Assembly (NCBI GenBank): GCA_039810085.1
Contig: JBDHWG010000009.1
Location: 12,609 to 76,608, forward strand
Source: Anaerolineae bacterium
Lineage (GTDB): Bacteria; Chloroflexota; Anaerolineae; Epilineales; JAHCIE01
DNA length: 64,000 nucleotides
Direction of reading: 5' to 3'
Positions 73 to 36,645 of the stretch are shown one piece after another (position 1 is the stretch's first letter; the number at the start of each line of letters is the position of its first letter). A program made the translations under genes and the position numbers. The notes beneath the pieces are model-generated. The model had not been told where the DNA came from. It worked only from the letters and a program-made list of their open reading frames with translations, and searched no databases.

Positions 73-426
73 TCAAAATCTCTGTGTCACTCGGTATTTG
101 AGGCGATAGACATTCGTTTTTCCCTGACCTCTTCGCTCAATTTCCAACAATCCCGCTTCCTGCAACTCACTAATGGCACGCGCAATCGTCGGCTGAGACG
201 AGCCGATGTCTTTCGCCATGACGTCTTGCCCTGGGAACACGAGATCATTGTGCCAGGCGTACGAGAGGAGCTTGCTGTACACGACCTTCGCGTTGGACGA
301 GATACTTGGATTGTTCAAGATGAAGTTGGGAATCTGGGTGAAACCACCAGCGCTGATCGGGTCAAACCCTTCAAGGATGATGTTCTGACGTTCTTGAAAT
401 CGATTGATCTGGGCAAGTTTCTCCAT
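73..426 (-). CDS. Winged-helix/HTH_36-like DNA-binding protein (replication-initiator-like N-terminal domain)
   Basis: 117 aa; motif FTQIPNFIL...AKVVYSKLLSYA...FPGQDVMAKDIGSSQPTIARAISELQEAGLLEIERRG typical of PF13730-type HTH found in plasmid/phage Rep-like proteins. Confidence 0.55.
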   Translation of the reverse strand: MEKLAQINRFQERQNIILEGFDPISAGGFTQIPNFILNNPSISSNAKVVYSKLLSYAWHNDLVFPGQDVMAKDIGSSQPTIARAISELQEAGLLEIERRGQGKTNVYRLKYRVTQRF

Positions 427-461
427 GTTGTTGGGTTGCTGGTTTGCTGGCTAACTGGTTT

Positions 462-848
462 TTAGACACGTCTCCCGAGATACTCATCTACTGCTTCCTG
501 CAACACTTCATAATCGTTTCTATCTGTTTCAAGCGCAAGCCGCTTGATTGCCTTGATGCTCTCCGATGAGAGGTAGCTGGTAAACTTCTTTCCTGGTGAA
601 CTGACTTGCGGGCTTCCCTGCTTGATGGGTTGCCGACTTACCGGCTTCCCTCTTTGCTGGATAACTGGTTTGCTGGCAACCTGTCTTACTGGTTTAGAAG
701 GAATCTGGTTAACGGGTTTTATGGTTTGCGGACTAGTCGGCAAAACAGCGATCTGACTTTCTTCTTTACTGGTTTGCTGGTTTACAGGTTTGCTGGTAAA
801 CAGCTGCTGATCTAGGGCTGCTAGTCTTGAAAATGGGTCGTTGCTCAT
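462..848 (-). CDS. Hypothetical protein with KPV(N/R/I/S)Q tandem repeats and C-terminal ribbon-helix-helix-like segment
   Basis: 128 aa; repeats KPVNQ/KPVRQ/KPVIQ/KPVSRQ; C-term SESIKAIKRLALETDRNDYEVLQEAVDEYL resembles RHH/CopG-like DNA-binding fold; 12-bp gap to upstream ATPase gene. Confidence 0.4.
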   Translation of the reverse strand: MSNDPFSRLAALDQQLFTSKPVNQQTSKEESQIAVLPTSPQTIKPVNQIPSKPVRQVASKPVIQQRGKPVSRQPIKQGSPQVSSPGKKFTSYLSSESIKAIKRLALETDRNDYEVLQEAVDEYLGRRV

Positions 849-860
849 GGGCCTCCTTTC

Positions 861-1742
861 TTATTTTTTCTTTTTCGGCTTGCCAATATTATGTAATCGT
901 TCCTCGGCTGCGGTTTCAACCGTGGCGCGGTCAATGACTTTCTTGTCGTTGAGAAACGCTAAGAGTAAGGAATTGTCAGCCAAGATATTTGCTTCACGGG
1001 GAACACCTTCTGAGTGTCTAAAAAGAGCATCGAGCGCGGCCGGCTCGAATGGATGTGCTTGATTGCCACTGGCCACCCGCCAACGAAAATCTATCATCTG
1101 AGCGAGTTCCTCGGTGCCAATTGGATCAAGCGTCGAGGCCATGGCAATGCGCGATCGGAAGTTACGCGCCATTGGATGGGTGATCTTATTGCGCAGCTCC
1201 TCTTGTGCGAAGAGGACGAGCTGCAACAACTTCATCTCATTCGTTTCATAGTTGATTAGTTGACGCAGAAGCTCAAGTAAGGGGAGTCTGAGGGTCTGTG
1301 CCTCATCAATGATGAGTACAACCGTCTTGCCTTCCTCCACAGCCTTGTCGTAGAGAAACATCTTGAAGATGTCGAGATTGTCCTTGTACGACCTGGCAGT
1401 CTTATAGAGCTGAAACTCGGCGATGATCGAGCGGAGCAGATTGTTGGTGGTGGGATAGTTGGGGTTCGTCAATAAGACGGACTGGTAGCCTTTGTCTAGG
1501 AATTTCTGATGGAGTAGGCGAGCCAAGGATGATTTTCCAACGCCAGTGTCGCCAAAGACTATGGTGAGGCCCTTTTTCGAATCGACCGTGAATTCAGTTT
1601 TTCCAAGTGCAGTGGAGTGGATCGGGGTGAGGAAGAAGTAGCGCGGGTTGGGAACCGTGCTAAATGGCTCTTCTTTCAGACTGAAGTAACTTAGGTAGGG
1701 GACTGGCATAAGTTGCGCGAACTCACATACCAGCTTACGCAA
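861..1742 (-). CDS. AAA_22 family ATPase (ExeA/TniB-like, ORC/Cdc6 clade)
   Basis: 293 aa; Walker A GDTGVGKSS, Walker B VVLIIDEAQ, N-terminal FSLKEEPFSTVPNPRYFF motif typical of ExeA-like ATPases. Confidence 0.75.
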   Translation of the reverse strand: MRKLVCEFAQLMPVPYLSYFSLKEEPFSTVPNPRYFFLTPIHSTALGKTEFTVDSKKGLTIVFGDTGVGKSSLARLLHQKFLDKGYQSVLLTNPNYPTTNNLLRSIIAEFQLYKTARSYKDNLDIFKMFLYDKAVEEGKTVVLIIDEAQTLRLPLLELLRQLINYETNEMKLLQLVLFAQEELRNKITHPMARNFRSRIAMASTLDPIGTEELAQMIDFRWRVASGNQAHPFEPAALDALFRHSEGVPREANILADNSLLLAFLNDKKVIDRATVETAAEERLHNIGKPKKKK

Positions 1743-1784: not shown

Positions 1785-2033
1785 TCAAAGCAAATCTTCC
1801 AGTTGCTCAGAAGAAAGACCGGCGTCTTTGATGATGCGCATTTGAAGACCTCGGCCAAGAGTGCGGTTGTGAATAGGGATAACCAGGGATTGAGGATGTC
1901 CAGGTTTCGACATTGAGAGATGGCTTCCGGTTTGCCTGCGTTTTATGAAACCGGCACGCTCAAGTGCTCGGATAAGTTCGGTGGGACGAAGAGCTTTCAG
2001 CCGGTCGGTCACGTCGGTCCTTGACGCGATCAA
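1785..2033 (-). CDS. hicA: HicA family toxin (mRNA interferase)
   Basis: 82 aa; LRPTELIRALERAGF...RQTGSHLSMSKPGHPQSLVIPIH..L..G.L..I.KDAGL matches HicA/YcfA fold; TTG start at 2033 (GTG alternative at 2012). Confidence 0.75.
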   Translation of the reverse strand: MIASRTDVTDRLKALRPTELIRALERAGFIKRRQTGSHLSMSKPGHPQSLVIPIHNRTLGRGLQMRIIKDAGLSSEQLEDLL

Positions 2034-2277
2034 GCCAGGCTTCCAAGTGCTCGGGGATTGTCCGTCCGTCTTCTTTATCCACCTCTAGCACCAATTGGAG
2101 TGCGTCCTCGATCATCGTCAAAGCCTCATCAATGGTTCGCCCCTCAGAGTACGCAGGCGGATAGTCAGCCACTTCGATGAGGTAGCCGCCTTCTTTCTCA
2201 GGGGTCAATCGGTAGGTCATACCGTCTTTGGTAATTTGGATAATTTCTGCTGGTTGTTTTTGGACCATATGCGTCAC
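1960..2277 (-). CDS. hicB: HicB family antitoxin
   Basis: 105 aa; YRLTPEKEGGYLIEVADYPPAYSEGRTIDEALTMIEDALQLVLE typical of HicB RNase H-like domain; overlaps hicA by 53-74 nt. Confidence 0.7.
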   Translation of the reverse strand: MTHMVQKQPAEIIQITKDGMTYRLTPEKEGGYLIEVADYPPAYSEGRTIDEALTMIEDALQLVLEVDKEDGRTIPEHLEAWLDRVKDRRDRPAESSSSHRTYPST

Positions 2278-2445: not shown

Positions 2446-2940
2446 ATGAGTAGAGGGTATTACGATACTGCACAGATTTGTCTCAACGGCCACCTCATCA
2501 ACGAGCGGGTCAATACGTTCCCCCCACATAACCAGGAGTATTGTTCTCTTTGCGGAGCCAAGACAATTACGAAGTGTCTGCATTGTCAGGCTGACATTCG
2601 AGGGGCGTATGACGTACCCGGAGTTGCGGTTTTTGGACTGCGGATTGCCGTTCCCAGATTTTGCCATGCCTGTGGTCATGCATACCCGTGGACAGAAGCC
2701 AGATTGCAAGCAGCAGAAGACTTGGCCGACGAGCTTGATAAACTCAACGATGAAGAGAAAACTTATCTGAAGGACAGCGTCAACGATATTGTGAGAGATA
2801 CTCCGCAAACACCGGTAGCAGCAACGCGATTTAAGCGCTTGGTTGCGAAAGCTGGCTCAGAAGCAGCATCGATGTTTCGTGATCTTCTTGTTGACATAGC
2901 AAGCGAAACCGCCAAGAAAATAATCTGGCCCGGGCCGTGA
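2446..2940 (+). CDS. DUF2321 family zinc-ribbon protein
   Basis: 164 aa; N-terminal MSRGYYDTAQICLNGH...CSLCGAK...CLHCQADIRGAYDV...FCHACGHAYPW matches the DUF2321 Cys-rich signature. Confidence 0.7.
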   Translation: MSRGYYDTAQICLNGHLINERVNTFPPHNQEYCSLCGAKTITKCLHCQADIRGAYDVPGVAVFGLRIAVPRFCHACGHAYPWTEARLQAAEDLADELDKLNDEEKTYLKDSVNDIVRDTPQTPVAATRFKRLVAKAGSEAASMFRDLLVDIASETAKKIIWPGP

Positions 2941-3062
2941 TTATGACAGCGAGTTCACTTCGATGTCCTCGAAAAGAACTCCGATTGACCCCTAGCTGAG
3001 TTCCGTTATAATCTGCCGACGTAACCGGCAAAGAACCCACTTCGATAGACCCGAGGACAAGC

Positions 3063-4343
3063 ATGGCCGAACCAACGAAATATGTCATGATGGACGATGC
3101 CGCTGAAATCCTAGGCTTGTCACCCGTCCGGATCCGAAAGCTGATTAAAGAGGGTGCCATTCGGACAGCCGGATCCAGCCGTGCACCCTTACTCGCCTGG
3201 GATGATGTTTGTCGGATAGCAGGAGCTCAACGTCCTCCTTGGGCACTTCTCACAAATGAGCTTGTTCATGGCTCTGTCTCGCCAGAAGGCTTGTTTCTCG
3301 CGAAACTAGAATCCGCGGATACCAACACTTCATTCGAGACCAACCAGGTCGCCAAAGGTCACTGCATTGACTGGATGAAAAAGATGCCGGCCGGTTCAGT
3401 TCAAACCGTTGTGACCTCTCCTCCATACTGGGGTGTACGCCGCTATAAAGGGGAGCAGGAGGTGCTCTGGTCTGATGGTACACGATGCGCATTTGGAGCA
3501 GAGGATACCCCTGAAGCGTATGTCCGGCATACAATGGATATCCTTAGGCACCTCAAGCGTGTGCTTCGCGATGATGGCGTCATCTGGTGGAATATTGGTG
3601 ACTCGTACCAAACGCGAACACACATTCGAGAGGGGAGTGTCGAACGGCTCCATGCCCTTGATGGACGTCGACAAGATGGGTGGAAGGACTATCCCCACAA
3701 GCGCTATTCAGCAGGGCACGATTACCTCAAGGACAAGGATCTCACCCTCGTGCCCTTCGCGGTCGCGATGGGTGCGCAACATTTAGGCTTCTGGGTGCGC
3801 TCAGTCATCATCTGGAGCAAAGAAAACACACTCCCTGAGCCGGTAAAAGATCGGCCGACCACCTCGCACGAGTATATTTTCATGCTAGTTAAGTCCCGCT
3901 TCTATTACTACGCGCATGACGTTGCTAAGGACCAAACCCGGTCAACGAAATGGGCACCCGAAGATATAGACGGCCAGCTAAAGAATTGGCGCACCGTTTG
4001 GACATTTGCGACTGCTGGGAGTGAAGACCGCAATCATACAGCAGCATTTCCTGAAGAGTTACCCAAGCGATGCATAGTAGTCAGTTCGAGACCGAACGAT
4101 CTCGTCTTTGATCCCTTTGCCGGTTCAGGAACAACGCTCGTAGTGGCAAAACGTCTTGGTCGTCAATACTTCGGCTGTGATCTGAGCGACGAATATGTTG
4201 ACGAGGCGTCTGCTCGACTGGAGCGAGAACGAGGAAGCCTTCAAGCCACACTTGAAGATGCGCTCCCACCAACAGAACTTGAGCGTGTTATAGACCAAGA
4301 GTCTGAAGCTCAGCCAAACAGAGAGCAGCTGCCACTCTTGTAA
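3063..4343 (+). CDS. DNA methyltransferase (beta-class N4-cytosine/N6-adenine) with N-terminal HTH_17/excisionase-like domain
   Basis: 426 aa; N-term DAAEILGLSPVRIRKLIKEGAIRT HTH; motif IV TSPPYWG precedes motif I FDPFAGSGTTLVVA (beta permutation). Confidence 0.85.
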   Translation: MAEPTKYVMMDDAAEILGLSPVRIRKLIKEGAIRTAGSSRAPLLAWDDVCRIAGAQRPPWALLTNELVHGSVSPEGLFLAKLESADTNTSFETNQVAKGHCIDWMKKMPAGSVQTVVTSPPYWGVRRYKGEQEVLWSDGTRCAFGAEDTPEAYVRHTMDILRHLKRVLRDDGVIWWNIGDSYQTRTHIREGSVERLHALDGRRQDGWKDYPHKRYSAGHDYLKDKDLTLVPFAVAMGAQHLGFWVRSVIIWSKENTLPEPVKDRPTTSHEYIFMLVKSRFYYYAHDVAKDQTRSTKWAPEDIDGQLKNWRTVWTFATAGSEDRNHTAAFPEELPKRCIVVSSRPNDLVFDPFAGSGTTLVVAKRLGRQYFGCDLSDEYVDEASARLERERGSLQATLEDALPPTELERVIDQESEAQPNREQLPLL

Positions 4344-4358
4344 GCTGTTGAGGAGAAT

Positions 4359-5678
4359 CTATAAAACTGTTCTAAGCCAGGAGCCCAGTCGAGTAACTTC
4401 TGCCGGTATCTGTGACAGGTCGAAGCCATACCCATATACCATACGGTCATCCGCTGTACGGGCTTCCTGGAGGGTCGCAGTCCCATCCGTGAGGAAGATG
4501 AAGCCTCCAATGGGCGCGTTGTATGCGCTCATGTAAGCCGCAAGCTGGTAATGATCACTGCTATCCGGTTCAAACTTATACTTCACATCAAGAAGTGCCG
4601 CTGTCGTCTGAAGGGTTGTGGACGGACGAATAACGATGTCTGGCTGAAGATTGGCGTTGAATCTGCTTGGCACGGCTCGCTGGTACATAAATGGGCGCCC
4701 GCCCAACCGCACATCATCGCGCCATGAGCGAACGGCGTACATTGGCTCAAGCGCACGCGCAACAATGTTGCGAACGGCTCGCTCAAACAACCGCTCCATC
4801 GGAAGACGCAACGGCGGATACTCAATCTCCGGATGACTCGCTTGGGTTAATGCAAATCGTTCCAGTAGAAGGCGACAGAAGCGCAACACCGGTTCATAGT
4901 ATTCACGGTTCGGCGGAATCCCTCCCCGCTCCTCCAGCAATCGACAGACCGACACCGCCTCGGCTGCGGATGCATACTCGGTGATCGGTGGTAGCGTAAG
5001 CATCTGAGAATACAGTCGTTCGCGGGTTGATGCGGTTAGGGTATCTGCAGAGGCGGCAAGAATAGAGAGCGTTGTTGCAATCACCTTGTTCAGGGAAATG
5101 TCGAGGGTATACCGAACAATACGTTGATCTATCAGGAGTTGACCTCGTTCAATGCTGGTCGTCAGACTCTCGAAAAAATCAATTTCCCCCTCGGGGAACG
5201 CAGAGAGAATCCGTCGGTCCTGATCACCACCCGCCCAACCAAGACGCACAACCTCCTCCAACGTACTCAGCAATTGATCCACCAAGACATCAAGAATGGT
5301 GACGTCGGCTTCAAGGCCATAGTACACCTGCTGATCGGGTATGGTCACGGTTGGTTCATCGGCGAGAAGAAGCAGGCGAACCAATGAGACCGGCCCGCAC
5401 TTGGCATCAACCTGGAGAATAACCCCGTCTCCCAGCAACTCGGTGGTTACGGTGGGTGGACTCTTGGCCGCAATCGTGTGATAGCCGGCAACGGTGGAGA
5501 GGGAAATATCAACAACGTCGAGGGCAAGTGGGTTGATAACTAAGGGCAATTGATCTGTGGGAACTAGATACCGACCAGTCTCGCTAATACGAATCCAGCG
5601 GACGAGCTTACCGCTTCTCGTCACGGCGTTTTCAATGGCAGCAAATTGAGTGTCGGGGGCCATACCAGTATTCGGCAA
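4359..5678 (-). CDS. mcrC: McrC-like 5-methylcytosine-specific restriction system nuclease subunit
   Basis: 439 aa; C-terminal PD-(D/E)xK signature PDIVIRP...LLDVKYKF; 1-bp gap to mcrB stop. Confidence 0.75.
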   Translation of the reverse strand: MPNTGMAPDTQFAAIENAVTRSGKLVRWIRISETGRYLVPTDQLPLVINPLALDVVDISLSTVAGYHTIAAKSPPTVTTELLGDGVILQVDAKCGPVSLVRLLLLADEPTVTIPDQQVYYGLEADVTILDVLVDQLLSTLEEVVRLGWAGGDQDRRILSAFPEGEIDFFESLTTSIERGQLLIDQRIVRYTLDISLNKVIATTLSILAASADTLTASTRERLYSQMLTLPPITEYASAAEAVSVCRLLEERGGIPPNREYYEPVLRFCRLLLERFALTQASHPEIEYPPLRLPMERLFERAVRNIVARALEPMYAVRSWRDDVRLGGRPFMYQRAVPSRFNANLQPDIVIRPSTTLQTTAALLDVKYKFEPDSSDHYQLAAYMSAYNAPIGGFIFLTDGTATLQEARTADDRMVYGYGFDLSQIPAEVTRLGSWLRTVL

Positions 5679-5679
5679 T

Positions 5680-7380
5680 CTATGATCGGAATGTAGCCAT
5701 CAACGGATCAACCTGATCGGTCACAACCGATTCCTGGCGTTGCGTCAAAAACAACTGAAGAGATGGTCGCAAAACGGTCATATACCAGTCCATCAGGTCT
5801 GGTTTATCCTTGATGTCGACGAAATGGGCGTGTCCGATTGGATACTTGGTCAACTCGGTGATCTGCCGCATGACGGCAACGATCTCCATTGCATCGTCCT
5901 CTGTGAATGTACTGTGATCCACAAGAAAATCAAACATCTGCTTGTAGCTAACGGCAAAATCGACAGTGCGAAATCGGGAGAGCAATGCGTAGTCGAGTGG
6001 GTACGTCAAGCGGTCGAGTGTGTTCATGGTTGCAATGAGCAGCAGTTGTTTGGGGATGACAATGTTGCCCCCGCCGTGTGGTAGCGGCAAAGACGTGCCC
6101 CGATAGCCCATCTCGATCAGATGAAACCCCTCTCCAAAGACGGCTGCAACATTGGCCCGATTCAGTTCTTCAATGATCACCACTGATGGTCGATCAGCAT
6201 TACGCTGACAATGCCGAAGAAACAGTCCGGGTTCAGCGGCGAAGTCGAGCGCACCTTGGGTCAGTTTCGGTGTGAGACGTTGGATAAAATCGCCATACCG
6301 CCATTCTTGATGAAACTGGACATGGAGAACGCGCTCCGCCCAGAGAGCGGGATCTGCTGCCTCGGTCGCCTGAAGGTAATCCTCCGCAATATGGACTGCG
6401 CTATACGACTTGCCCGTTCTGGGAGCGCCCGTCAACAGAACGTTCAGTTGACCCTTCTGGATTATTCGTCGCGTAAGTTCAATTGGATCAGTTGCATGCT
6501 CCTGGCTAATCCCCAGAAGCTGCGCGTTAAATTGCATTTGCGCCATGCTACTTGCCTCTCGTAGTCGGATCTCAAAAGGATCGACCTGGCCAAACAAGAT
6601 AAGGTGGTTGTATTCCTCTTCGTCACGATCTTGTTCGAAATCGTCTGTCTGAAGGTTAGGGGCTGATGATCGTTGCGTAAAAAGAAAATACAGTTCCTCG
6701 TCCGAAAGCGAGAGTCGTGACCGCACCAAATGCGCAAGCTGGTCAAAGTTCGGCTGGACCTCGAAAACTTCATTACGGCAACACCAAATGACAAATGGAA
6801 TCCAGGGGATACTACAAAGCCTATGCTCATCAGGCCCAAAGAAAATCGGTGCTGCATCAAGGTATTTAGGTCGCAGTCGAAGGCGCGCACCTTGACCTTG
6901 TTCAGCCTCGATAAGCTCGAAGAGAAACTCACGCGGTCTCAAACCGTATCGTTGCTCCTGCTTATCGAACCAATCGTTCTTGAGTCTGGTCCAGATAACG
7001 CTTCGGTTACTGTCCTCTTTGCGCAGGAGATACCGCCGGTTATCACTGATTGGGAAAAATAGGGGGTAGCCAACAGTTCTTGAAACGCCTTGAGGTGCAG
7101 AGGGGAGGGGCGGTTGATTATTCTGAAGGGTGCCATTTTCAACGCTTAATTGCACGAGTGAACTAAATGAGTCGCTGATCCACGCTAGATATCGAAGTGC
7201 GTCCGTCGGCTTGTTCGCTGACGTGATTTTTACCTCGCTGGCAATATTCCCCTCGATTCTAGCACCGTCATACTTCAATGCTAGAAAGACGATGATATCA
7301 CTATGTGCTGTTCCGAAGAGCGAGCGAGCTGCTCGGGCAATGAGTTTTGGTTTCAAGCGAAACACGGGACCGGACCTCAT
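5680..7380 (-). CDS. mcrB: McrB-like AAA+ GTPase subunit of type IV restriction system, with unassigned approximately 300-aa N-terminal DNA-reading domain
   Basis: 566 aa; LLTGAPRTGKS Walker A, VVIIEELNRANVAAVFGEGFHLIE and LLLIATMNTLDRL motifs characteristic of McrB. Confidence 0.85.
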   Translation of the reverse strand: MRSGPVFRLKPKLIARAARSLFGTAHSDIIVFLALKYDGARIEGNIASEVKITSANKPTDALRYLAWISDSFSSLVQLSVENGTLQNNQPPLPSAPQGVSRTVGYPLFFPISDNRRYLLRKEDSNRSVIWTRLKNDWFDKQEQRYGLRPREFLFELIEAEQGQGARLRLRPKYLDAAPIFFGPDEHRLCSIPWIPFVIWCCRNEVFEVQPNFDQLAHLVRSRLSLSDEELYFLFTQRSSAPNLQTDDFEQDRDEEEYNHLILFGQVDPFEIRLREASSMAQMQFNAQLLGISQEHATDPIELTRRIIQKGQLNVLLTGAPRTGKSYSAVHIAEDYLQATEAADPALWAERVLHVQFHQEWRYGDFIQRLTPKLTQGALDFAAEPGLFLRHCQRNADRPSVVIIEELNRANVAAVFGEGFHLIEMGYRGTSLPLPHGGGNIVIPKQLLLIATMNTLDRLTYPLDYALLSRFRTVDFAVSYKQMFDFLVDHSTFTEDDAMEIVAVMRQITELTKYPIGHAHFVDIKDKPDLMDWYMTVLRPSLQLFLTQRQESVVTDQVDPLMATFRS

Positions 7381-7664
7381 TCTGGGGGAGTGTCGGTGTC
7401 GAGAAAATAATCAATTGGCTTGCCGTACAGGGAAGCAAACGCCTCCAATTCGAGGGCATCCACGCGACGCTCGCCATTCTCGGATTTAGAGATAAACGAC
7501 TGGGGTTTGCCAAGCCGCTCAGCGACCTGTTCTTGCGTCAAGCTGGCGTCAAGTCGCGCTTGGCGAAGGCGCTTGAGAAACTGGCGATAGCGGCTGTCGT
7601 AATCCTGAAGGCTCACACCCTGCCTCAAATAGAGTGACATGAGAGTTGGCAAGTTGGCAGGCAT
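7377..7664 (-). CDS. XRE-family HTH transcriptional regulator, translationally coupled to mcrB (ATGA overlap)
   Basis: 95 aa; LTQEQVAERLGKPQSFISKSENGERRVDALELEAFASLYG is a canonical HTH_3 domain. Confidence 0.75.
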   Translation of the reverse strand: MPANLPTLMSLYLRQGVSLQDYDSRYRQFLKRLRQARLDASLTQEQVAERLGKPQSFISKSENGERRVDALELEAFASLYGKPIDYFLDTDTPPE

Positions 7665-7787
7665 TATGGCTCAGGGCAGAATTTATCCCAAGTTGGGATA
7701 TTGCTGATACAGGCAGTAGGATGACGGGCCTACCGACAGCAGCTGGGGGCAATGCACATTCATACTTGACAACGAGAGATAGAAATG

Positions 7788-7812
7788 GTACAACTCTACC
7801 ATGCAAGTTGTA
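7788..7812. promoter_or_regulatory. Inverted repeat GTACAACT-N9-AGTTGTAC upstream of vapB (putative operator)
   Basis: 8-bp perfect arms read in sequence about 22 nt upstream of the vapB RBS AGAGG. Confidence 0.3.
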
Positions 7813-7833
7813 CATGTTATTAGAGGTACAGAC

Positions 7834-8094
7834 ATGAAGGAATACATTAGCAGCGTCAGCCCGAAGGGGCAGATCACTATCCCCGCAGAGATTAGGGAAT
7901 TGCTAGGGATCAAGCCAAAGGATAAAGTGATCTTTGAAATGGGTGAGGAGGGAGTCAAAATCCGTCCTCTCGCTGCTCGGCTTGAAGCGAGCTATCAAGC
8001 GATACCCGCACTTACACCCGCGAGAACGCTCGAAGAGATGATGGAGATTGCTCATGAGGATCACGCACAGGAGGCTGCCCAAGAGGGCTTATAA
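7834..8094 (+). CDS. vapB: AbrB/MazE/SpoVT-type antitoxin (VapB-like)
   Basis: 86 aa from ATG 7834 (RBS AGAGG 8 nt upstream); GQITIPAEIRELLGIKPKDKVIFE swapped-hairpin motif. Confidence 0.75.
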   Translation: MKEYISSVSPKGQITIPAEIRELLGIKPKDKVIFEMGEEGVKIRPLAARLEASYQAIPALTPARTLEEMMEIAHEDHAQEAAQEGL

Positions 8095-8100
8095 CACATT

Positions 8101-8517
8101 ATGGCGGACCACTTTCTGGACACTAACCTCATTATCCGCTACTTGACCAAGGACAATACCGACCAGGCAGCTCGTGCCTATTATGTTTTCCAGAGGCTGG
8201 AGACCGGCCAATTAACAGTCGCAATGTGCGAAGGCGTGCTCATTGAAGCAGTGCAGGTACTTTCTTCCAAACGGCTCTATAATGTTTCGCGTCAAGACAT
8301 TCGCATGCATCTCTCGACCATCATCCAGCTCCAAGGAGTCAAAATCCCCAACAAGCGCACATACCTTCGCGCACTGGATCTGTACGCTTCAACAACTCTC
8401 GATTTTGTTGATGTGCTGATTGTCGCCCATATGGAGCGCACGAAGGTACGCAGCGTCCTTAGTTTCGACCAGGGCTTTGACAGTATCACGGGAATCAGCA
8501 GACAGGAACCCGAGTAG
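8101..8517 (+). CDS. vapC: PIN-domain toxin VapC
   Basis: 138 aa; FLDTNLIIRYL...VDVLIVAHME...SFD PIN acidic residues; 6-bp gap after vapB. Confidence 0.8.
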   Translation: MADHFLDTNLIIRYLTKDNTDQAARAYYVFQRLETGQLTVAMCEGVLIEAVQVLSSKRLYNVSRQDIRMHLSTIIQLQGVKIPNKRTYLRALDLYASTTLDFVDVLIVAHMERTKVRSVLSFDQGFDSITGISRQEPE

Positions 8518-8711: not shown

Positions 8712-9977
8712 ATGGCCGCTCGCCTCTGGAAAGACGATAAACGAGCTGCGGTCCAGAAGGATATTTCCTTCCTACTCTCTGCCTACAATGGAACAGGTTG
8801 GAATGTCACCGTCGAGAACCGACTGGCAATGACTGAGTTAGGATGCTCCATTGACGGCACAAAACTCGAAAGAAATGTGGTGATGCAAGTCCTCCAGCAG
8901 ATGATAGCTGAACAAAAAACGAGTATTGACGACTTTGAGATTGTTCTAGAACAAGTAGTTCACGAACATGAACATCGCCGGCGAGCACAGGTCGGTAAGT
9001 GGACGTTCTTCATCCCTATTGAACTTGATGTAGCAGCAGACATTCCCCTTCCCACTACTCTACGTGTTTTTGGCAGGGATTTTGTGTTCCAGACACAAGC
9101 CGCGGTACGAGAACAAATGGATGCTGAAGCACTAGGGGAAATGCTACTGCGGTGGAAGTTCTATAACTCGTGGGAAGATATCCACCTGCCAGCCTGGTTC
9201 ATCTCTATTTCGACGTACGAGGCCGAATGGAATGCTGCCTGGAAGGACATCGAGCCAGCGTATGATGTATTCCGAGGTCTGATCGAGTTCACGCTCTGTT
9301 TTGGACCAACAGGATGGTCTTTCCCCCAACGAGAAGAGCCGCGTAGAAAAATACCGCATCCGTTATGGATGATTGCCAGCAAAGGTCGGCTTGCACTGGA
9401 GCCTATTCTGTTTGAGGCTGACGAATACCCTCTTAAAGAACGGTTTACTCTGACCCCAGATTGGCTGAACGCAATCTTGGAAAATGGCAAAGCTCTGCGC
9501 GAGCTTCCCGCAAAAAACTCAACCTTATCAGTTCTAGCGGACGCTCTCCGTCTATACGCGATAGCTATGGATGCACGTTCCAACTATGCCTGTTTCTTAG
9601 GATTATGGCAGATGGTAGAGGCAATCACGCGTTCAGAGACGACGAGAGGTAAGTCTGATGAGGTCGTCTCACGCCTAAGCTGGCATCGAGAGCGTATGAA
9701 ACTACCCACCTCCGGTTATGCAGCAATCCTAAAGCGACTGGCGGACAAGCGCAACAATCTTGTCCACAGAGGTATTCATGACATTACCCACGACGACGTA
9801 ATGTTCATGAAGTTCTTCGGCGACATAGTGCTTGTTTGGCTTCTGGGAGTTTACACATCCTTGCCAACCAAAACACATCTGGATGAGTTCTATAGATTGC
9901 GCTCTCAAGGAAAATACAGCGTTCGGGCAGCAAAGGAGACCGCTCAGTATCTCGAAGATTTCACCCAGGCTGAATAG
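8712..9977 (+). CDS. Hypothetical 421-aa protein with C-terminal HEPN-like Rx4HG motif (KRNNLVHRG)
   Basis: Rx4H motif embedded in predicted helical C-terminal approximately 120 aa; no other recognisable family; N-terminal 300 aa unassigned. Confidence 0.5.
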   Translation: MAARLWKDDKRAAVQKDISFLLSAYNGTGWNVTVENRLAMTELGCSIDGTKLERNVVMQVLQQMIAEQKTSIDDFEIVLEQVVHEHEHRRRAQVGKWTFFIPIELDVAADIPLPTTLRVFGRDFVFQTQAAVREQMDAEALGEMLLRWKFYNSWEDIHLPAWFISISTYEAEWNAAWKDIEPAYDVFRGLIEFTLCFGPTGWSFPQREEPRRKIPHPLWMIASKGRLALEPILFEADEYPLKERFTLTPDWLNAILENGKALRELPAKNSTLSVLADALRLYAIAMDARSNYACFLGLWQMVEAITRSETTRGKSDEVVSRLSWHRERMKLPTSGYAAILKRLADKRNNLVHRGIHDITHDDVMFMKFFGDIVLVWLLGVYTSLPTKTHLDEFYRLRSQGKYSVRAAKETAQYLEDFTQAE

Positions 9978-11130: not shown

Positions 11131-12588
11131 ATGGACGCATCCTTTCAGCAAATCAAAACCAATTTCCGTACGCTGCTCGTCGCCGCAGTAGACGAGGGTC
11201 TTGAACATGTTGCGCAGGTAATGAGTGACAGCAGATGGATCGGAACCTACTTCCAATGGCCGGTGATGTCGAAGTGGGAAAGCGGTCTTCCGAGTTTTAG
11301 ACTAAGTCAATTTGAAGGCCCGAAAGATTACAGCATGTTATTCACCGGCCCTGATCCAATAATCGATGCTGATACACTCAAATCATTCCAAGCGCTTGTG
11401 TCATACGTTAAGCAAGAGCCATTTTTGCAGGACAGGCTACTCCCAGTGACAGTGGGTCAGGACAGGCAGGGCGTTATCGAGGATGAGCGTCTTGTCCGGA
11501 TATTCGTGTACCAAATCCTCGAAGCGCTCATTGACCGATATATTCATACACACGCAAGAACCACCTTTGACATGACGGCGTTTGAGGTTGTTTACGAACC
11601 GTATGCCCGATATTTGTTCGAGGAGCAACTCTTAGCAGATATATATGTGCCAATCCTTTTTCTGAAATTTGCTGATGATACCATCACGATAGACGAAAAC
11701 ACAGCGATTGAGCGAATGAGCGATGCATTTCAGCTAGCACGCGCTCCTCTCAAAGCGTATGGGCCAGGTGTCCATGAAGCAGTTATGGGGGCAGCAACCC
11801 ACGCTCTAGTGCTTCGAAATTGGCCGGTCCGCAACGGGAACACGTGGGAGTTCTTACAGCGCCTTACAGAAGTGAGTGTATACCCGCTGGATGACATAGA
11901 CAACTTCTTCGCGGCTGTGAGAATTGTCACGGGCTTCGAAACGGGTTACGCACAACTGCTTGTGAACCCTAAGGGGTGGGCGGCTCACTATAAAGCTGAC
12001 CTCCCTCCGATTGAGGGAACGTCAAGACGAGCCTACCCTAATCGGTTCGAGAATTTCTACTGGCTAAGAAAAGAGGTGCCTGAGATAAACAAAGCAGGTG
12101 CTCAAGAAATAGGTCGTGTGTTCCTGAAGTTACTCCAAATTAAGGGAAATTCCGTGCAGATTGCCGCGAGACGGTTGAATCTTTGCTATCTCCGTGAGCA
12201 TGAAGAGGACTATATTCTTGACGCTACTATTGCGCTTGAAGCTCTTTTCTCTGACGATGAGCGAACAGAGATGACCCACAAACTAGCCTTGAGAGTTGCA
12301 GCACTAGCAACCATCTCCGACGTGTTTCGGCGCCCCCCAAAGCAAGTGTTTCGTGAGGTGAAGCAAATTTACGGGTATAGATCAGCCGTCGTCCATGGTA
12401 GCAAAAAGACTGACCGAGCACGAGACATTACGGTACATCATACGCAACGAGTACCCGCAGGTACTCTGGCCGTAGAATATCTCCGTCATGCATTGCTTAT
12501 CTTGATTGACCATCCCCAATATCGAGAGCCATCGCGCATTGATGAGGATTTGTTGCTTGGCAAAGGCGTCGATGAGCAATCTACATAA
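11131..12588 (+). CDS. Hypothetical 485-aa protein with C-terminal HEPN-like Rx4HG motif (YRSAVVHGS)
   Basis: Motif and surrounding helical pattern parallel the 8712-9977 protein; N-terminal region unassigned. Confidence 0.5.
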   Translation: MDASFQQIKTNFRTLLVAAVDEGLEHVAQVMSDSRWIGTYFQWPVMSKWESGLPSFRLSQFEGPKDYSMLFTGPDPIIDADTLKSFQALVSYVKQEPFLQDRLLPVTVGQDRQGVIEDERLVRIFVYQILEALIDRYIHTHARTTFDMTAFEVVYEPYARYLFEEQLLADIYVPILFLKFADDTITIDENTAIERMSDAFQLARAPLKAYGPGVHEAVMGAATHALVLRNWPVRNGNTWEFLQRLTEVSVYPLDDIDNFFAAVRIVTGFETGYAQLLVNPKGWAAHYKADLPPIEGTSRRAYPNRFENFYWLRKEVPEINKAGAQEIGRVFLKLLQIKGNSVQIAARRLNLCYLREHEEDYILDATIALEALFSDDERTEMTHKLALRVAALATISDVFRRPPKQVFREVKQIYGYRSAVVHGSKKTDRARDITVHHTQRVPAGTLAVEYLRHALLILIDHPQYREPSRIDEDLLLGKGVDEQST

Positions 12589-25844: not shown

Positions 25845-28640
25845 CTAACGTGTTACGTCCAGCGGACCTAGAAATACCTGGTCACCTGGAACAGCCGCGC
25901 CGTCCACCCTCACCGGCAGCCGCTCGCCCGTCGCCGCATCGTACAGACCGACTTCGATCCGGTATTGCCCCGGCGCAGCATTGCGATCCAGCGGGATGAC
26001 GTAGCGGTCGGCGATGTATTCGCCTGGCCGCCAACCTGTCGTCGGGCGGCTCCCCTCGACGGGAATGGTGTCAAGCTGGCCGACGATTTTCCCGTCTGGC
26101 CCGACGACGTGGGTAAACACCTTGAGGCTCTTGTCGAGCCGCCCCTGCGGATGCCAGTACAACGTTAGATCGACAGTGCTACCCGGCTTCACGCTCGGCT
26201 GTGCGATGTCGTAGCCGGCCAGCGTCACCCGATCCCCCAACGTCGCACTCAACGGGTGGCCGATGGGCGGCGGCTGTAGATTGACGGCCACCGGGCGCAC
26301 CGTCAGCCGCCCGATCTCCGCCGCTTCACCCTGGGGCTGACCATCCCCGCCAACAAGCGACACTACAACGGCATAGTCGCCGCCGGGCGTGTCTGCGTCA
26401 ACAAGGTAGTTATACTGGCCGAGCACCGTCTGGCCGGATTCCGAGGTCAGTGCGTATGTCTGGCTGCTGATGCTCGTGCCATCTGCGCCCACCAATGCAA
26501 TTTGCGCGTTGGCGTTGGGCTGCTTCACCTGCCAGCCCAATTCAAGGTGGACACTGTCGCCCGCGTCAACCGACGTTCGCTCCTGCCCCGCGCCGATGAG
26601 TCGCGCTGCGCCGAGGTCCTTGTCCAGGGGCCGCGACAGCTTGAGCGCGTCGGCCGACGGCGGACGGGCGGGCGCCATCACATTCAGTTCGGCAATCTTG
26701 TACTCTGTGCCGACCGGATTGCCCGACTCGTTCAGAATGTTCAGCCGCTTGAGGTCCGGGCTGTAGACGCCGACGACCACGGAGTAGCGGCCGGCCGGCG
26801 TGCCGGGGCGCACGTAGAGCCGCATCCTGTCGCTGTTCAGCTCGTTCGCCATCCAGCTTGCCGTCTGCTTGCGCACCGAGTTGGTCAACGCGCCGTCGCC
26901 CTGCCCCCAGACATTCCCCTCCGCATCGACCAGGTGGATGAAGGCAAGGTAGTTCTGGTCCAGGGGTGAGCGGTCGGGGTCAGCAGGGGCGGGCGCGCGC
27001 ACGCCGAAGCGCAGCCCCACGTCCAGGTCGCCGCCGCTGGGCACGGCGTCCGTCGACAGGCTGCCGCTGAACAGGGTGAGCTTATTGTCGAAGTTCAACT
27101 CCGGCCCCAGCGGCGGCGCATCTTTGCGGCGGTAGATTTGCAGCAGTTGCGGCCCGCGTCGGAAGACGCCCAGCGGCTTGAAGTTCTGGTCGATGTACGC
27201 CTGGAACTCCTTGAGGTCGCGCAGGAAACGCAGCTTCCCGAACTCCGACTGGTCCACCACGACGGCCCGCGCCCCGTCCGCCTCCATCTCCTGGACAAGC
27301 CTTGCGCCGGTGGTCTGCCCACTCGACGCCGCGCCCTGGGAGAGCGACGCCGCCGCATAGCCCGCCGGACGCTGCGCGAAGTAGTTCAGCCCCGCGTAAT
27401 CTGAGAGGAAGGTCGCGTCTGGCCCAACCTCGTACTTGAGGAACTCTGCCACGCGCCACGTTCCGTCCTCGCTGTAGCTCGCCACAACGTTGTCGGCGAC
27501 GCCCCACGGCAAGATGATGGCAGCGACGATGGCAGGCAGCAGAAAGCCGCGCTTCGTCCAGGCGAGCATCGGCTCCAGGCTCATGGCGAATAGCCCGACG
27601 AGCGCCGGCACGAGGTAGACCAGGTGACGCGACCATAGTTCCCGCGACAGAAAGATGAACGCGATCAGGCTTGGCAGCTGCCACGCCAGGAGCGTTCGCC
27701 GCCCGCCCTGCCGCCACGTGACGATTGCCATGGGCAGCGCGAACACCAGGAGCGACGCGTACTGCGCCCCATACGTCCAGTAGAACTCGATGCCCTTGCG
27801 GAAGACTTCCCAGCGCGAGAGCTGGCTGCCCTGCATAAGCTGGTGGCCGAAGATGGCCGTCCATGTCTCCGGTATCAGCAGGATCAGCAAGCCCATGACG
27901 CCGCCCGCTAACATTGCGGCGGGCAGCCCAATCGCAAGCGTGTCGTAGATAGCGCCTTTGAGCGTCCAGGTCGGGCGCCCGCGCCAGGCCTTCGGCCACA
28001 GGAGGTAGAGGATGACACCTCCCAGGGCCAGCACGCCGAACAGCTTCGTCAAGATAGCGAGGCCGAACAGCAGGCCGGAGAACACCAGCCAGCGGCGCGA
28101 CTTCCGCTCCTCGGCGATGACGAAGACCCACAACCCCATTGCGATGAAGAAGAGCATGTAGTCTTCGGGGCGATACACCCGGGCGACCTGGTAGACATCC
28201 GGGTGGGCAAGGAATGCGGCCAGCGCGGCCAGCGCCAGCGCCGGACTCATCAGGCGGCGGAAGACGCGATAGAAGCCCCAGCCCGCGCCGCCAATGAGCA
28301 GGGCGCTCAGAATGCGTAGCGGCGCCGGTGTCGGCCCAAAGATGTGCTCCACCAACCCGCCGATGCCGAGAAACAGGGGAAGCTGAGGCGTCAGCAGGTC
28401 GCGGTACGGCAGCTCACCCAGGCTGACGCGCCAGGCCTGGTACAGGTACAGCCCTTCGTCATCGACGATGAACCAGCCCATCATGTTGTACAGGATGGCG
28501 GCGACCGCGACAAGGATGATGACCAGCGCAGCGATATCGGCGTGGTCGATGACGAACGCCCACACGCGGCTCCAGGAGAGCGCGCCGAGAGTTGGGCGCG
28601 AGGAGCGAGAGATTGATTCGGTCCGCGACTCAGTACTCAT
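25845..28640 (-). CDS. GT-C fold membrane glycosyltransferase (PMT_2/ArnT-like) with three tandem C-terminal beta-domain repeats (paralog 1)
   Basis: N-term TM1 + DDEGLY motif, multiple TM helices; C-term repeats ...LTLYWHPQG...VFTHVVGPDG...GQYRIEVGLYDAATGERLP; start ATG 28640 chosen (longer ORF would overlap upstream gene). Confidence 0.75.
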   Translation of the reverse strand: MSTESRTESISRSSRPTLGALSWSRVWAFVIDHADIAALVIILVAVAAILYNMMGWFIVDDEGLYLYQAWRVSLGELPYRDLLTPQLPLFLGIGGLVEHIFGPTPAPLRILSALLIGGAGWGFYRVFRRLMSPALALAALAAFLAHPDVYQVARVYRPEDYMLFFIAMGLWVFVIAEERKSRRWLVFSGLLFGLAILTKLFGVLALGGVILYLLWPKAWRGRPTWTLKGAIYDTLAIGLPAAMLAGGVMGLLILLIPETWTAIFGHQLMQGSQLSRWEVFRKGIEFYWTYGAQYASLLVFALPMAIVTWRQGGRRTLLAWQLPSLIAFIFLSRELWSRHLVYLVPALVGLFAMSLEPMLAWTKRGFLLPAIVAAIILPWGVADNVVASYSEDGTWRVAEFLKYEVGPDATFLSDYAGLNYFAQRPAGYAAASLSQGAASSGQTTGARLVQEMEADGARAVVVDQSEFGKLRFLRDLKEFQAYIDQNFKPLGVFRRGPQLLQIYRRKDAPPLGPELNFDNKLTLFSGSLSTDAVPSGGDLDVGLRFGVRAPAPADPDRSPLDQNYLAFIHLVDAEGNVWGQGDGALTNSVRKQTASWMANELNSDRMRLYVRPGTPAGRYSVVVGVYSPDLKRLNILNESGNPVGTEYKIAELNVMAPARPPSADALKLSRPLDKDLGAARLIGAGQERTSVDAGDSVHLELGWQVKQPNANAQIALVGADGTSISSQTYALTSESGQTVLGQYNYLVDADTPGGDYAVVVSLVGGDGQPQGEAAEIGRLTVRPVAVNLQPPPIGHPLSATLGDRVTLAGYDIAQPSVKPGSTVDLTLYWHPQGRLDKSLKVFTHVVGPDGKIVGQLDTIPVEGSRPTTGWRPGEYIADRYVIPLDRNAAPGQYRIEVGLYDAATGERLPVRVDGAAVPGDQVFLGPLDVTR

Positions 28641-28666
28641 TCGATAAAGACAACGCTTCTGCTCTC

Positions 28667-28703
28667 CAAGACCTGACAGGTTTTGGAAACCTGTCAGGTC
28701 TTG
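28667..28703. repeat. Perfect 37-bp palindrome CAAGACCTGACAGGTTTTGGAAACCTGTCAGGTCTTG in the 68-bp intergenic gap between two GT-C genes
   Basis: 17-bp arms read directly; core shared with 39372-39400. Confidence 0.5.
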
Positions 28704-28708
28704 CTTGC

Positions 28709-34731: not shown

Positions 34732-34735
34732 CGCG

Positions 34736-35728: not shown

Positions 35729-36644
35729 GTTGCCACTCCACCTGGGCGCGCAGCCCGGTTTCGATGTCGACCATTGGCTGCCAGCCCAAGACTCGCTGCG
35801 CTTTTGAGGTATCGGCGAGGGCGTGACGCTGTCCGCCCGGGCGCGGCGGACCGGGAATACGCGCCAGCTTTCGGCCGACAATCTCTTCGACCAGGGCAAT
35901 CGTTCGGTTCCAGCTAATGTTGCTCCCGCCACCGATGTTGAATGCCTCGCGCGTCGGGCCATGAGCCAGGGCCAGCAGATTGGCAGCGACGGCATCCGAG
36001 ATGTACGTATTACCCCGCGTCTGCTCCCCGTCGCCGAAGATCGTCATCGGCTTGCCGTTCATCACAGCGTCGATCAGGATATAGATTCCCATGTCGGGGC
36101 GCTGGCGCGGCCCGTACACCGAGAAGTAGCGCAGCATCGTGAACGGGACGCCGAACGTCTCGCCGTAGCTGCGCACAAGGTTCTCAGCGGCGAGCTTGGT
36201 GACGCCGTAGGGCGACACCGGGTTGAGGGGCCGAGTCTCGTCGCCCGTTGCCTCGCGCCCGTACACTGAGGACGTCGAGGCGTGGACGAAGTGTTTCACC
36301 CCAGCCCCTTTCGCCGCCTCCAGCAGGCGCTGCGTCGCCAACAGGTTACACGTCATGTACGACCCGAACTCGGTCCAGCTCCGCAGCAGGCCCGCCATCG
36401 CCGCTTCGTGGAAGATGACGTCTACGCCATCCACCATCGGCGCAAGGTCCGCCGAGCGCAGGTCGGCCTCGTAGAACGTGAAGCCGGGCGACTCGCGCAG
36501 ACACGCCAGGTTCGCCTCTTTGACCGGCCGCGGGTAGTAGTCGGTGAAACAGTCTACCCCGACGACGCTGTGGCCCTGGGCGACCAGCGCCTCCGCCAAA
36601 TGGCTGCCGATGAAACCCGCCGCGCCTGTGACAAGACACCGCAT
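35721..36644 (-). CDS. NAD-dependent epimerase/dehydratase (SDR; UDP-sugar 4-epimerase/UDP-glucuronate decarboxylase-like)
   Basis: [11 protein letters not shown] Rossmann motif; catalytic YGVTKLAAE. Confidence 0.85.
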
Positions 36645-36645
36645 G

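What the first reader, a model, noticed from the sequence alone, without database searches (positions are those of the whole stretch)
3063..7664. McrBC type IV system coupled to an XRE controller and converging on an HTH-fused SPPY methyltransferase
mcrB carries canonical GTPase motifs but has an unassigned 300-aa N-terminal reader domain. An XRE HTH gene overlaps the mcrB start (ATGA), suggesting C-protein-like control of a modification-dependent nuclease. Immediately downstream and convergent is an orphan-looking beta-class N4C/N6A methyltransferase with its own HTH_17 domain. Coexistence implies that the McrB reader must ignore the mark written by the adjacent methyltransferase.
Basis: partly seen in the sequence, partly recalled or inferred. 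Interest (0 to 1): 0.55.

Follow-up and report, generated by a model that had tools for sequence, protein, structure and literature searches.

The report
Methylase-protected McrBC-like restriction system
The four genes are real, but they most likely form an ordinary self-protecting restriction-modification system whose cutting enzyme is an McrBC-type motor nuclease carrying a rare DNA-recognition domain with no match to any solved structure, rather than a nuclease that attacks methylated DNA.

Summary
All four genes are at the stated coordinates. They are an XRE regulator (7377-7664, -), an McrB-like AAA+ protein (5680-7380, -), an McrC-like PD-DxK nuclease (4359-5678, -) and a convergent beta-class SPPY methyltransferase with an N-terminal excisionase/MerR-type HTH (3063-4343, +). 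The ATGA overlap between the XRE gene and mcrB is real.

The "type IV plus orphan methylase" reading is not supported. The McrB N-domain is rare: 15 clusters among 1.84 billion representatives. In all 11 related loci a DNA methyltransferase lies next to the mcrB/mcrC pair. It is either an ortholog of this N4-type enzyme or a C5 methylase fused to a G/T-mismatch glycosylase or accompanied by Vsr. Four further orthologous methylases adjoin other AAA_5 or McrC-like genes.

The N-domain model is confident (pLDDT 84) but resembles no solved structure, including SRA, YTH, EVE and B3. A 17-bp palindrome overlapping the -35 of the XRE promoter is conserved in the closest homologous locus.

Best explanation: a controller-regulated, methylation-protected R-M system of the LlaJI/LlaI/BsuMI kind, a kind already described. 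What is new is the recognition domain. Methylation sensitivity itself is untested. Interest is moderate.

The parts
2985..3012 (+). Promoter-like site of the methyltransferase gene (TTGACC-16-TATAAT, 11 of 12 matches)
   Evidence: Consensus scan only. It lies 51 nt upstream of ATG 3063. It is not conserved in L001.
3063..4343 (+). DNA methyltransferase, 426 aa. It has an N-terminal excisionase/MerR-type winged HTH (aa ~7-55) and a beta-class N6_N4 catalytic domain (SPPY at 119, FAGSGTT at 352). It is probably N4-cytosine specific.
4359..5678 (-). McrC-like nuclease subunit (439 aa from TTG 5678, more likely 434 aa from ATG 5663) with a PD-x16-DxK motif
   Evidence: PF10117 E 5e-17. P346, D347, D364, K366, Y367 and K368 are invariant in 9 homologs. 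The 434-aa gene call is on the identical contig L009.
5680..6525 (-). McrB-like AAA+ NTPase domain (aa ~286-566): P-loop GAPRTGKS followed by Y, Walker B IIEELNRAN, signature loop MNTLDR
   Evidence: Aligns to E. coli McrB 6hz4/6ut6, E 1e-21. AAA_5. NCBIfam McrB E 1.6e-21, far below the equivalog cut-off.
6526..7380 (-). N-terminal domain of the McrB-like protein (aa 1-~285). It is the predicted DNA-recognition module and matches no known family or fold.
7377..7664 (-). XRE/HTH_3 controller gene (95 aa as listed, probably 79 aa from GTG 7616). Its stop codon overlaps the mcrB start codon (ATGA).
   Evidence: HTH_3 E 4e-13. PADLOC Control_protein E 2.9e-5, RmrA 1.5e-9. PDB C.BclI E 2e-3. Overlap seen. 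The GTG start aligns with the L001 gene start.
7684..7700 (.). Perfect 8-1-8 palindrome TATCCCAAnTTGGGATA, the predicted operator of the XRE protein
   Evidence: It is the only exact copy in the window. It is unique apart from one unrelated 3-mismatch match at 33846, and 0.05 matches are expected by chance. It is conserved in L001 at 6665-6681 inside an otherwise diverged intergenic region.
7663..7691 (-). Promoter-like site of the XRE-mcrB-mcrC operon (TTGGGA-17-CATAAT). The -35 hexamer lies inside the palindrome.
   Evidence: Consensus scan, 9 of 12 matches. L001 has the same geometry, TTGGGA-17-AATAAT, read directly.

Best explanation
This is a four-gene, controller-regulated restriction-modification module in which methylation protects the host.

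**Proposed mechanism**
- The methyltransferase is transcribed from its own strong promoter. It marks a cytosine-containing host site, probably as N4-methylcytosine.
- The McrB-like protein uses its ~285-aa N-terminal domain to bind that site only when it is unmethylated.
- Its AAA+ ring, together with the McrC-like PD-DxK subunit, translocates DNA by NTP hydrolysis and cuts it.
- The XRE protein binds the palindrome over the -35 of its own promoter. This sets the level and timing of nuclease expression, as C-proteins do.

**Shown here**
- The gene identities and intact catalytic motifs.
- The conserved and co-varying linkage between methyltransferase and nuclease.
- The conserved operator and promoter geometry.
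- The absence of any known modified-base reader fold.

**Inferred**
- That methylation blocks rather than triggers cutting.
- The methylated base.
- GTP use.
- The translocation mechanism.
- The direction of regulation by the XRE protein.
For: **1. Synteny**
- L001, L002, L003, L005, L006/7, L008, L010, L011 and L012 all carry a DNA methyltransferase next to a B/C pair with this N-domain. In L005 only the C-terminal part of a C5 enzyme is on the contig, with Vsr upstream.
- L017 and L018 do too. Their N-domains are related by hhalign at 98.2% and 95.6% probability.
- L017 repeats the full XRE-B-C plus convergent M layout.

**2. Co-variation**
- The N6_N4 partners are mutual orthologs (41-71% identity, TSPPYWG).
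- The C5 partners are mutual orthologs (54-59% identity).

**3. The linked methylases act on the host genome**
- The complete C5 partners carry a conserved N-terminal region that hits HhH-GPD in L002 and L012, or Vsr accompanies them in L005. Such functions are known to repair 5mC deamination.
- A nuclease dependent on that mark would therefore be suicidal.

**4. Orthologous methylases elsewhere**
- Methylases at 51-57% identity in L013-L016 and L019 are also next to AAA_5 or McrC-like genes.
- 74 of the 80 loci fetched showed no such neighbour.

**5. Mobility as a unit**
- In L011 the B-C-M unit is inserted between two phosphonate-binding genes.

**6. No reader fold**

**7. PADLOC**
- The McrB-like protein hits only models labelled Type II REase.

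**8. Precedent**
- LlaJI reads an unmodified site and needs its methylases (PMC1459862, PMC12707154).
- LlaI has a controller, a methylase and an McrB/McrC-like nuclease, and BsuMI is site-specific (10.64898/2026.08.31.748284).
- Methyltransferase-associated McrB clades were reported by Bell et al. (PMC11090510).

**9. Regulation**
- The operator and promoter are conserved.
Against: - No experiment or methylome was available. Blocking by methylation is inferred from synteny alone.
- The family is small: 12 loci including the window.
- The signature loop MNTLDRLT departs from the consensus MNT[A/S]D[R/K]S.
- LlaJI subunits themselves showed no nuclease or GTPase activity in vitro (PMC1459862), so the mechanistic template is incomplete.
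- The promoter calls are consensus matches no more frequent than in shuffles (5 found, 4.1 expected).
Confidence: 0.75

Rival explanations
1. The system is a type IV, modification-dependent McrBC. Its N-domain reads some foreign modification. The neighbouring methyltransferase is an unrelated or orphan enzyme whose mark the nuclease ignores.
For: - The AAA+ and McrC domains are homologous to E. coli McrBC.
- The fused N-domain-plus-motor architecture is the canonical McrB layout.
- McrB N-domains are known to be diverse modified-base readers (PMC12707154).
- The locus lies in a small island with toxin-antitoxin genes, where unrelated systems cluster.
Against: - Methyltransferase adjacency holds in all 11 related loci, across phyla and in an archaeon, with orthologous methylases. 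Island clustering does not explain this.
- There is no similarity to SRA, YTH or EVE folds.
- C5-methylase partners with deamination-repair functions rule out 5mC dependence in the sister clade.
Confidence: 0.1
2. This rival concerns the regulator only. The XRE protein is a plain autorepressor or a general repressor of the nuclease operon, for example one released on infection or stress like CapH or RmrA-type regulators. It would not be a C-protein-type activator/repressor timing switch.
For: - There is a single palindrome centred on the -35, not the two-operator C-box arrangement.
- The best PADLOC hits are RmrA (1.5e-9) and capH (4.8e-7), ahead of Control_protein (2.9e-5).
- Similarity to solved C-proteins is generic (C.BclI E 2e-3).
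- Sister loci use other regulators: a small 61-70 aa gene, or HTH_3 fused to the methylase.
Against: - The gene position and its translational coupling to the nuclease gene are the classical C-R arrangement.
- LlaI, a system of the same kind, has a controller protein (10.64898/2026.08.31.748284).
- There is no partner protease or sensor gene next to the XRE gene.
Confidence: 0.35
3. The nuclease pair is not a DNA restriction enzyme partnered with the methylase. It would be an abortive-infection or RNA-directed effector, as proposed for some McrBC derivatives, with the N-domain sensing something other than DNA sequence.
For: - The N-domain fold is unknown.
- Some McrBC relatives are predicted to target RNA (PMC11090510).
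Against: - The McrC PD-DxK motif is intact and invariant, unlike the inactivated nucleases of the RNA-directed clades.
- The signature loop is NxxD, not NxD.
- There are no HEPN, coiled-coil or CARF partners in the operon.
- The tight methyltransferase linkage would be left unexplained.
Confidence: 0.05

Closest known systems
LlaJI (Lactococcus lactis pNP40) and H. pylori LlaJI-type systems
   Same: - The nuclease has two subunits. One is an McrB-like NTPase with a fused, family-specific N-terminal DNA-binding domain, and the other is an McrC-like PD-(D/E)xK subunit.
- Cognate methyltransferases lie in the same cassette.
- It recognises an unmodified site (PMC1459862, PMC12707154).
   Different: - LlaJI reads DNA with a B3 domain. 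No B3-like or other known fold was found here.
- LlaJI has two methylases for an asymmetric site. This module has one beta-class SPPY enzyme with its own HTH.
- This module has a separate XRE controller.
LlaI (pTR2030) and BsuMI non-canonical McrBC systems
   Same: - They are methylase-protected and site-specific, with an McrB-like AAA+ protein and an McrC-like nuclease.
- LlaI also encodes a controller protein (10.64898/2026.08.31.748284).
   Different: - In LlaI and BsuMI the DNA-binding module (R1) is a separate protein and the N-linker is absent. Here it is fused to the motor, so the nuclease has two genes rather than three.
E. coli K-12 McrBC (type IV)
   Same: - The AAA+ domain is homologous (E 1e-21), with P-loop, Walker B and NxxD loop.
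- The partner is McrC-like, and the gene order is B then C.
   Different: - EcMcrB has an SRA-like DUF3578 reader for methylcytosine and no cognate methylase.
- Here the N-domain is unrelated and a methylase is always linked.
- NCBIfam scores are far below the equivalog cut-offs (76.6 against 637, and 27 against 338).
Methyltransferase-associated McrB clades in the McrBC census of Bell et al. 2024
   Same: - These are NxxD-type McrB GTPases contextually linked to predicted DNA methyltransferases. The authors noted this as surprising for type IV systems and left it for a later paper (PMC11090510).
   Different: - That paper gives no description of this N-domain or of its pairing with N4 and C5 methylases. 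I could not check whether these sequences are in its data set.
C-protein (controller) regulated type II R-M systems such as PvuII, AhdI, Esp1396I and BclI
   Same: - A small HTH_3 protein is encoded just upstream of the endonuclease gene and overlaps it.
- There is a palindromic operator in its own promoter.
- The methylase has a separate promoter.
   Different: - The operator is a single 8-1-8 palindrome, not the usual pair of C-boxes.
- No GACT...AGTC-type sequence is visible in the region read.
- Sequence similarity to solved C-proteins is only generic.

Membership tests
McrBC type IV (modification-dependent) restriction system | McrB-type AAA+ GTPase domain with P-loop, Walker B and Nx(x)D signature loop | tested here: met
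   Aligned to EcMcrB at E 1e-21. GAPRTGKS, IIEELNRAN and MNTLDR are present.
McrBC type IV (modification-dependent) restriction system | McrC partner with PD-(D/E)xK nuclease | tested here: met
   PF10117 E 5e-17. PD-x16-DxK is invariant in 9 homologs.
McrBC type IV (modification-dependent) restriction system | N-terminal modified-base reader domain (SRA-like DUF3578, YTH, EVE/PUA) | tested here: not met
McrBC type IV (modification-dependent) restriction system | No cognate protective methyltransferase | tested here: not met
   A methyltransferase is adjacent in the window and in all 11 related loci.
McrBC type IV (modification-dependent) restriction system | Cleavage requires modified DNA | not testable with these tools
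   This needs restriction assays with methylated and unmethylated DNA.
LlaJI/LlaI/BsuMI-type methylase-protected McrBC-like R-M | McrB-like NTPase plus McrC-like nuclease encoded with cognate methyltransferase(s) | tested here: met
   The synteny is conserved and the methylases are orthologous.
LlaJI/LlaI/BsuMI-type methylase-protected McrBC-like R-M | Family-specific DNA-binding module (B3 in LlaJI.R1, separate R1 in LlaI/BsuMI) | tested here: inconclusive
   A family-specific N-domain is present and fused as in LlaJI, but its fold is not B3 or any known DNA binder. DNA binding was not tested.
LlaJI/LlaI/BsuMI-type methylase-protected McrBC-like R-M | Recognises an unmodified specific site, and methylation protects | not testable with these tools
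   Inferred from synteny only.
C-protein controllers of R-M systems | Small HTH_3 protein encoded immediately upstream of, and co-transcribed with, the endonuclease gene | tested here: met
   HTH_3 E 4e-13. ATGA overlap with mcrB. The same arrangement occurs in L001 and L017.
C-protein controllers of R-M systems | Palindromic operator (C-box) in its own promoter | tested here: inconclusive
   One conserved 17-bp palindrome overlaps the -35. It is a single site, and it is not the known C-box type by reading.
C-protein controllers of R-M systems | Concentration-dependent activation then repression that delays endonuclease expression | not testable with these tools
   This needs reporter assays.
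Beta-class N4-cytosine DNA methyltransferases | N6_N4_Mtase fold with the catalytic motif before the AdoMet motif FxGxG | tested here: met
   PF01555 E 1.7e-52. SPPY at 119 and FAGSGTT at 352.
Beta-class N4-cytosine DNA methyltransferases | SPPY/F catalytic tetrapeptide (N4C) rather than DPPY (N6A), with m4C as the product | tested here: inconclusive
   SPPY is present. The nearest annotated relatives are partners of XcyI-family enzymes, and some homologs are named cytosine-N4-specific by JGI. The rule linking motif to target base comes from prior knowledge and has exceptions. The product is not testable here.

The most novel reading that the evidence does not exclude
The first ~190 residues of this McrB-like protein are a previously undescribed DNA-recognition fold. 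It would bind a cytosine-containing site only when that cytosine is unmethylated, and it would be blocked by either N4- or C5-methylation. This would explain why sister clades of the same nuclease pair with an N4-type methylase or a C5 methylase. It would be a methyl-averse counterpart of the SRA/YTH/EVE readers found in other McrB proteins, and a new portable specificity module for NTP-driven nucleases.
Probability: 0.35. Interest if true: 0.6.

Novelty: new variant of a known kind. Interest (0 to 1): 0.4.

Why it matters
- It corrects an annotation trap. An McrB/McrC pair is routinely called type IV, but here the evidence points to a classical, methylation-protected enzyme.
- It adds a fused-architecture member with a new recognition domain to the few known McrBC-like R-M systems (LlaJI, LlaI, BsuMI). 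That group is being used to ask how McrBC motors evolved from site-specific to modification-dependent targeting.
- The family pairs with either N4-type or C5 methylases. That gives a natural experiment on how the recognition domain senses cytosine methylation.
- The domain could become a new specificity module for engineered motor nucleases.
- None of this overturns current understanding.

Tried and rejected
- **TAL effector hits.** A profile of the N-domain against PDB sequences returned only TAL effector repeats, with no stretch significant on its own. I treated these as a repeat artefact.
- **The search for related loci.** The closest methylase relatives are from Chloroflexi MAGs.
- **AFDB Foldseek.** The library was unavailable.
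- **Third homologous-protein search.** The profile run returned one fragment only.
- **Plasmid and phage collections.** tblastn of the N-domain found nothing in plasmids. tblastn of the full-length protein against phages matched only the AAA+ part.
- **Methyltransferase upstream regions.** The window and L001 share no operator. The inverted repeat at 2951-2981 is therefore not claimed as a regulatory site.
- **McrC against PDB sequences.** No hit.
- **Methylase N-terminus.** I redid it with database homologs.
- **NJ tree.** L017 was translated out of frame, so its placement is ignored.
- **Cluster look-up.** It gave no source names.
Full report
**1. Observation**

The window carries four genes at the stated coordinates:
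- 7377-7664 (-): a 95-aa HTH_3 protein.
- 5680-7380 (-): a 566-aa AAA_5 protein.
- 4359-5678 (-): a 439-aa PF10117 (McrBC) protein.
- 3063-4343 (+): a convergent 426-aa N6_N4_Mtase. Its N-terminal HTH_17 match is weak.

The XRE stop codon and the mcrB start codon overlap as ATGA. Residues 311-521 of the AAA_5 protein align to E. coli McrB structures at E 1e-21. The motifs present are GAPRTGKS-Y, IIEELNRAN and MNTLDR, an NxxD loop. The McrC-like protein has PD-x16-DxK, and this motif is invariant in nine homologs. The methyltransferase has SPPY at 119 before FAGSGTT at 352, which is the beta-class order.

**2. The N-terminal domain of the McrB-like protein**

- It has no Pfam, NCBIfam or PADLOC family in aa 1-300.
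- An exhaustive HMMER scan of 1.84 billion cluster representatives with aa 1-300 found 15 proteins. All are ~550-583-aa McrB-like proteins or fragments.
- An AF2 model built from 13 sequences is confident (pLDDT 83.9, pTM 0.88).
- The domain is therefore not the E. coli DUF3578/SRA reader, not YTH or EVE, and not the B3 domain of LlaJI.R1.
- Residues ~191-240 are also recognisable in more distant methylase-linked AAA_5 proteins. This suggests a unique module of about 190 aa followed by a shared helical adaptor and linker.

**3. Gene neighbourhoods decide the interpretation**

Every relative with this N-domain for which enough flanking DNA exists has a DNA methyltransferase next to the B/C pair:

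| Locus | Methyltransferase and layout |
|---|---|
| L001 (McrB 53% identical) | Same XRE-B-C layout with a convergent N6_N4 methylase |
| L006/L007 | Divergent N6_N4 methylase preceded by a 61-aa gene in L006 |
| L010 (archaeal context: TBP, AGOG) | Divergent N6_N4 methylase preceded by a 70-aa gene |
| L011 | Convergent N6_N4 methylase. The B-C-M unit sits between two phosphonate-binding genes. |
| L002, L003, L008, L012 | C5 methylases of 711-779 aa. Three carry HTH_3 hits and two carry HhH-GPD glycosylase hits. |
| L005 | Vsr upstream and the cut C-terminus of a C5 methylase downstream |
| L017 (Chloroflexi MAG) | XRE-B-C with a convergent methylase. N-domain related at hhalign probability 98.2%. 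|
| L018 (Nostoc sp. XA010) | B-C with a convergent methylase. N-domain related at probability 95.6%. |

The N6_N4 partners are mutual orthologs (41-71% identity, TSPPYWG). The C5 partners are mutual orthologs (54-59% identity).

Orthologs of the window methylase at 51-57% identity in L013-L016 and L019 also adjoin AAA_5 or McrC-like genes. 74 of the 80 loci fetched showed no such neighbour, and most of those methylases are more distant (32-41% identity).

Linkage that persists across phyla, across two methylase families and with co-varying partners is what a cognate R-M pair shows. Island clustering would not give it.

The C5 partners come with deamination-repair functions (HhH-GPD or Vsr). 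This shows that these methylases mark the host genome, so the nuclease cannot depend on that mark.

**4. Methyltransferase**

- SPPY, the nearest annotated relatives (36% identity, partners of XcyI-family endonucleases) and JGI names for some homologs all point to N4-cytosine methylation.
- The rule linking motif to target base comes from prior knowledge. The product is untested.
- The HTH fusion is therefore supported, although the Pfam score is below the gathering cut-off.
- The gene has a near-consensus promoter-like site, TTGACC-16-TATAAT.

**5. Regulator**

- A perfect palindrome TATCCCAAnTTGGGATA lies at 7684-7700. It is the only exact copy in 64 kb. Apart from one unrelated 3-mismatch match at 33846 it is unique, and 0.05 matches are expected by chance.
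- It is conserved in L001 within an otherwise diverged intergenic region.
- In both loci its right half contains a -35-like TTGGGA, followed after 17 nt by (C/A)ATAAT (and direct reading).
- The -10 hexamer overlaps ATG 7664. The XRE gene therefore probably starts at GTG 7616, which matches the L001 gene start.
- The palindrome is absent from the methylase promoter.
- This fits a controller that acts on the nuclease operon only. Whether it is a C-protein-type switch or a simple autorepressor cannot be told from sequence. PADLOC scores for RmrA and capH exceed those for Control_protein, and similarity to C.BclI is generic.

**6. Comparison with known systems**

- LlaJI has an McrB-like subunit with a unique N-terminal DNA-binding half, an McrC-like subunit and two methylases. 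It targets an unmodified site (PMC1459862). A review places it among McrBC relatives that recognise unmodified DNA through a B3 domain (PMC12707154).
- LlaI encodes a controller, a methylase, a separate DNA-binding R1, an McrB-like R2 and an McrC-like R3. BsuMI is site-specific (bioRxiv 10.64898/2026.08.31.748284).
- Bell et al. reported that McrB clades with NxxD, NxD and NxxxD loops are contextually associated with methyltransferases, and they deferred the analysis (PMC11090510).
- The kind is therefore known. This module differs in three ways. It has a new recognition domain fused to the motor. It has one HTH-fused SPPY methylase. Its family alternates between N4-type and C5 partners.
- An NJ tree places the N4-linked L011 among C5-linked members. 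That tree has no support values.

**7. Verdict**

- The most likely identity is a controller-regulated, methylation-protected McrBC-like R-M system (confidence about 0.75).
- The type IV reading retains about 0.1.
- Novelty: a new variant of a known kind.
- Interest is moderate (0.4). It rests mainly on the recognition domain, which matches no solved structure, and on the alternation between N4-type and C5 partners.

Noticed in passing
window 1785-2277 (-) and 7801-8517 (+): Two toxin-antitoxin pairs flank the R-M module: HicA/HicB, and a MazE/AbrB-type antitoxin with a PIN toxin. Together they form a small defence/addiction island.
   Followed up: partly
window 8712-9977 (+) and 11131-12588 (+): Two large ORFs (421 and 485 aa) have no Pfam, PADLOC or NCBIfam match. 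Each has an Rx4H motif near the C-terminus (RNNLVH, RSAVVH), which is a HEPN-like lead. They are not similar to each other by BLASTP.
   Followed up: partly
window 2446-2940 (+): A DUF2321 protein (E 1.6e-60) with a zinc-ribbon-like N-terminus lies immediately upstream of the methyltransferase promoter. An imperfect inverted repeat at 2951-2981 lies between them.
   Followed up: no
window 73-1742 (-): An HTH_36 protein, a 128-aa proline- and glutamine-rich ORF and an AAA_22 ATPase lie in a row. The ATPase has a weak PADLOC mad8 hit. This could be part of a mobile element or another defence gene set.
   Followed up: no
window 25845-42820: A cluster of four very large PMT_2-type glycosyltransferase-like membrane proteins, a GT2 enzyme and a YfhO-like protein. 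This is a chromosomal envelope-glycosylation region, so the window is chromosomal rather than plasmid or phage. No tRNA genes occur in the 64 kb.
   Followed up: no
L013 53-2516, L014 150-2613, L015 2676-5616, L016 5488-7609: Orthologs of the window methyltransferase (55-57% identity) sit beside a different two-gene pair. It consists of an AAA_5 protein only about 23-26% identical in the motor, and a ~415-aa partner with no Pfam McrBC hit but a PD...ExK-like stretch. This looks like a second, more divergent methylase-linked motor-nuclease family.
   Followed up: partly
L002 928-3195, L003 3229-5547, L008 2767-4902, L012 1100-3439: The C5 methyltransferases of the sister clade are 711-779-aa proteins. 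Three have an N-terminal HTH_3 hit. L002 and L012 have an HhH-GPD glycosylase hit, and the region is conserved in all four. The methylase appears to carry its own regulator and probably its own 5mC-deamination repair.
   Followed up: partly
L006 5688-5873 and L010 3013-3225: A conserved 61-70-aa gene (64% identical between a bacterial and an archaeal locus) overlaps the start of the N6_N4 methylase gene in place of the XRE controller. It has no Pfam hit, and its sequence looks ribbon-helix-helix-like by eye.
   Followed up: no
L011 4134-10260: In a 13.2-Mb contig (GCA_026626705.1) the B-C-M unit lies between two PF12974 phosphonate-binding protein genes. This suggests that the three genes were inserted as one mobile unit.
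   Followed up: no
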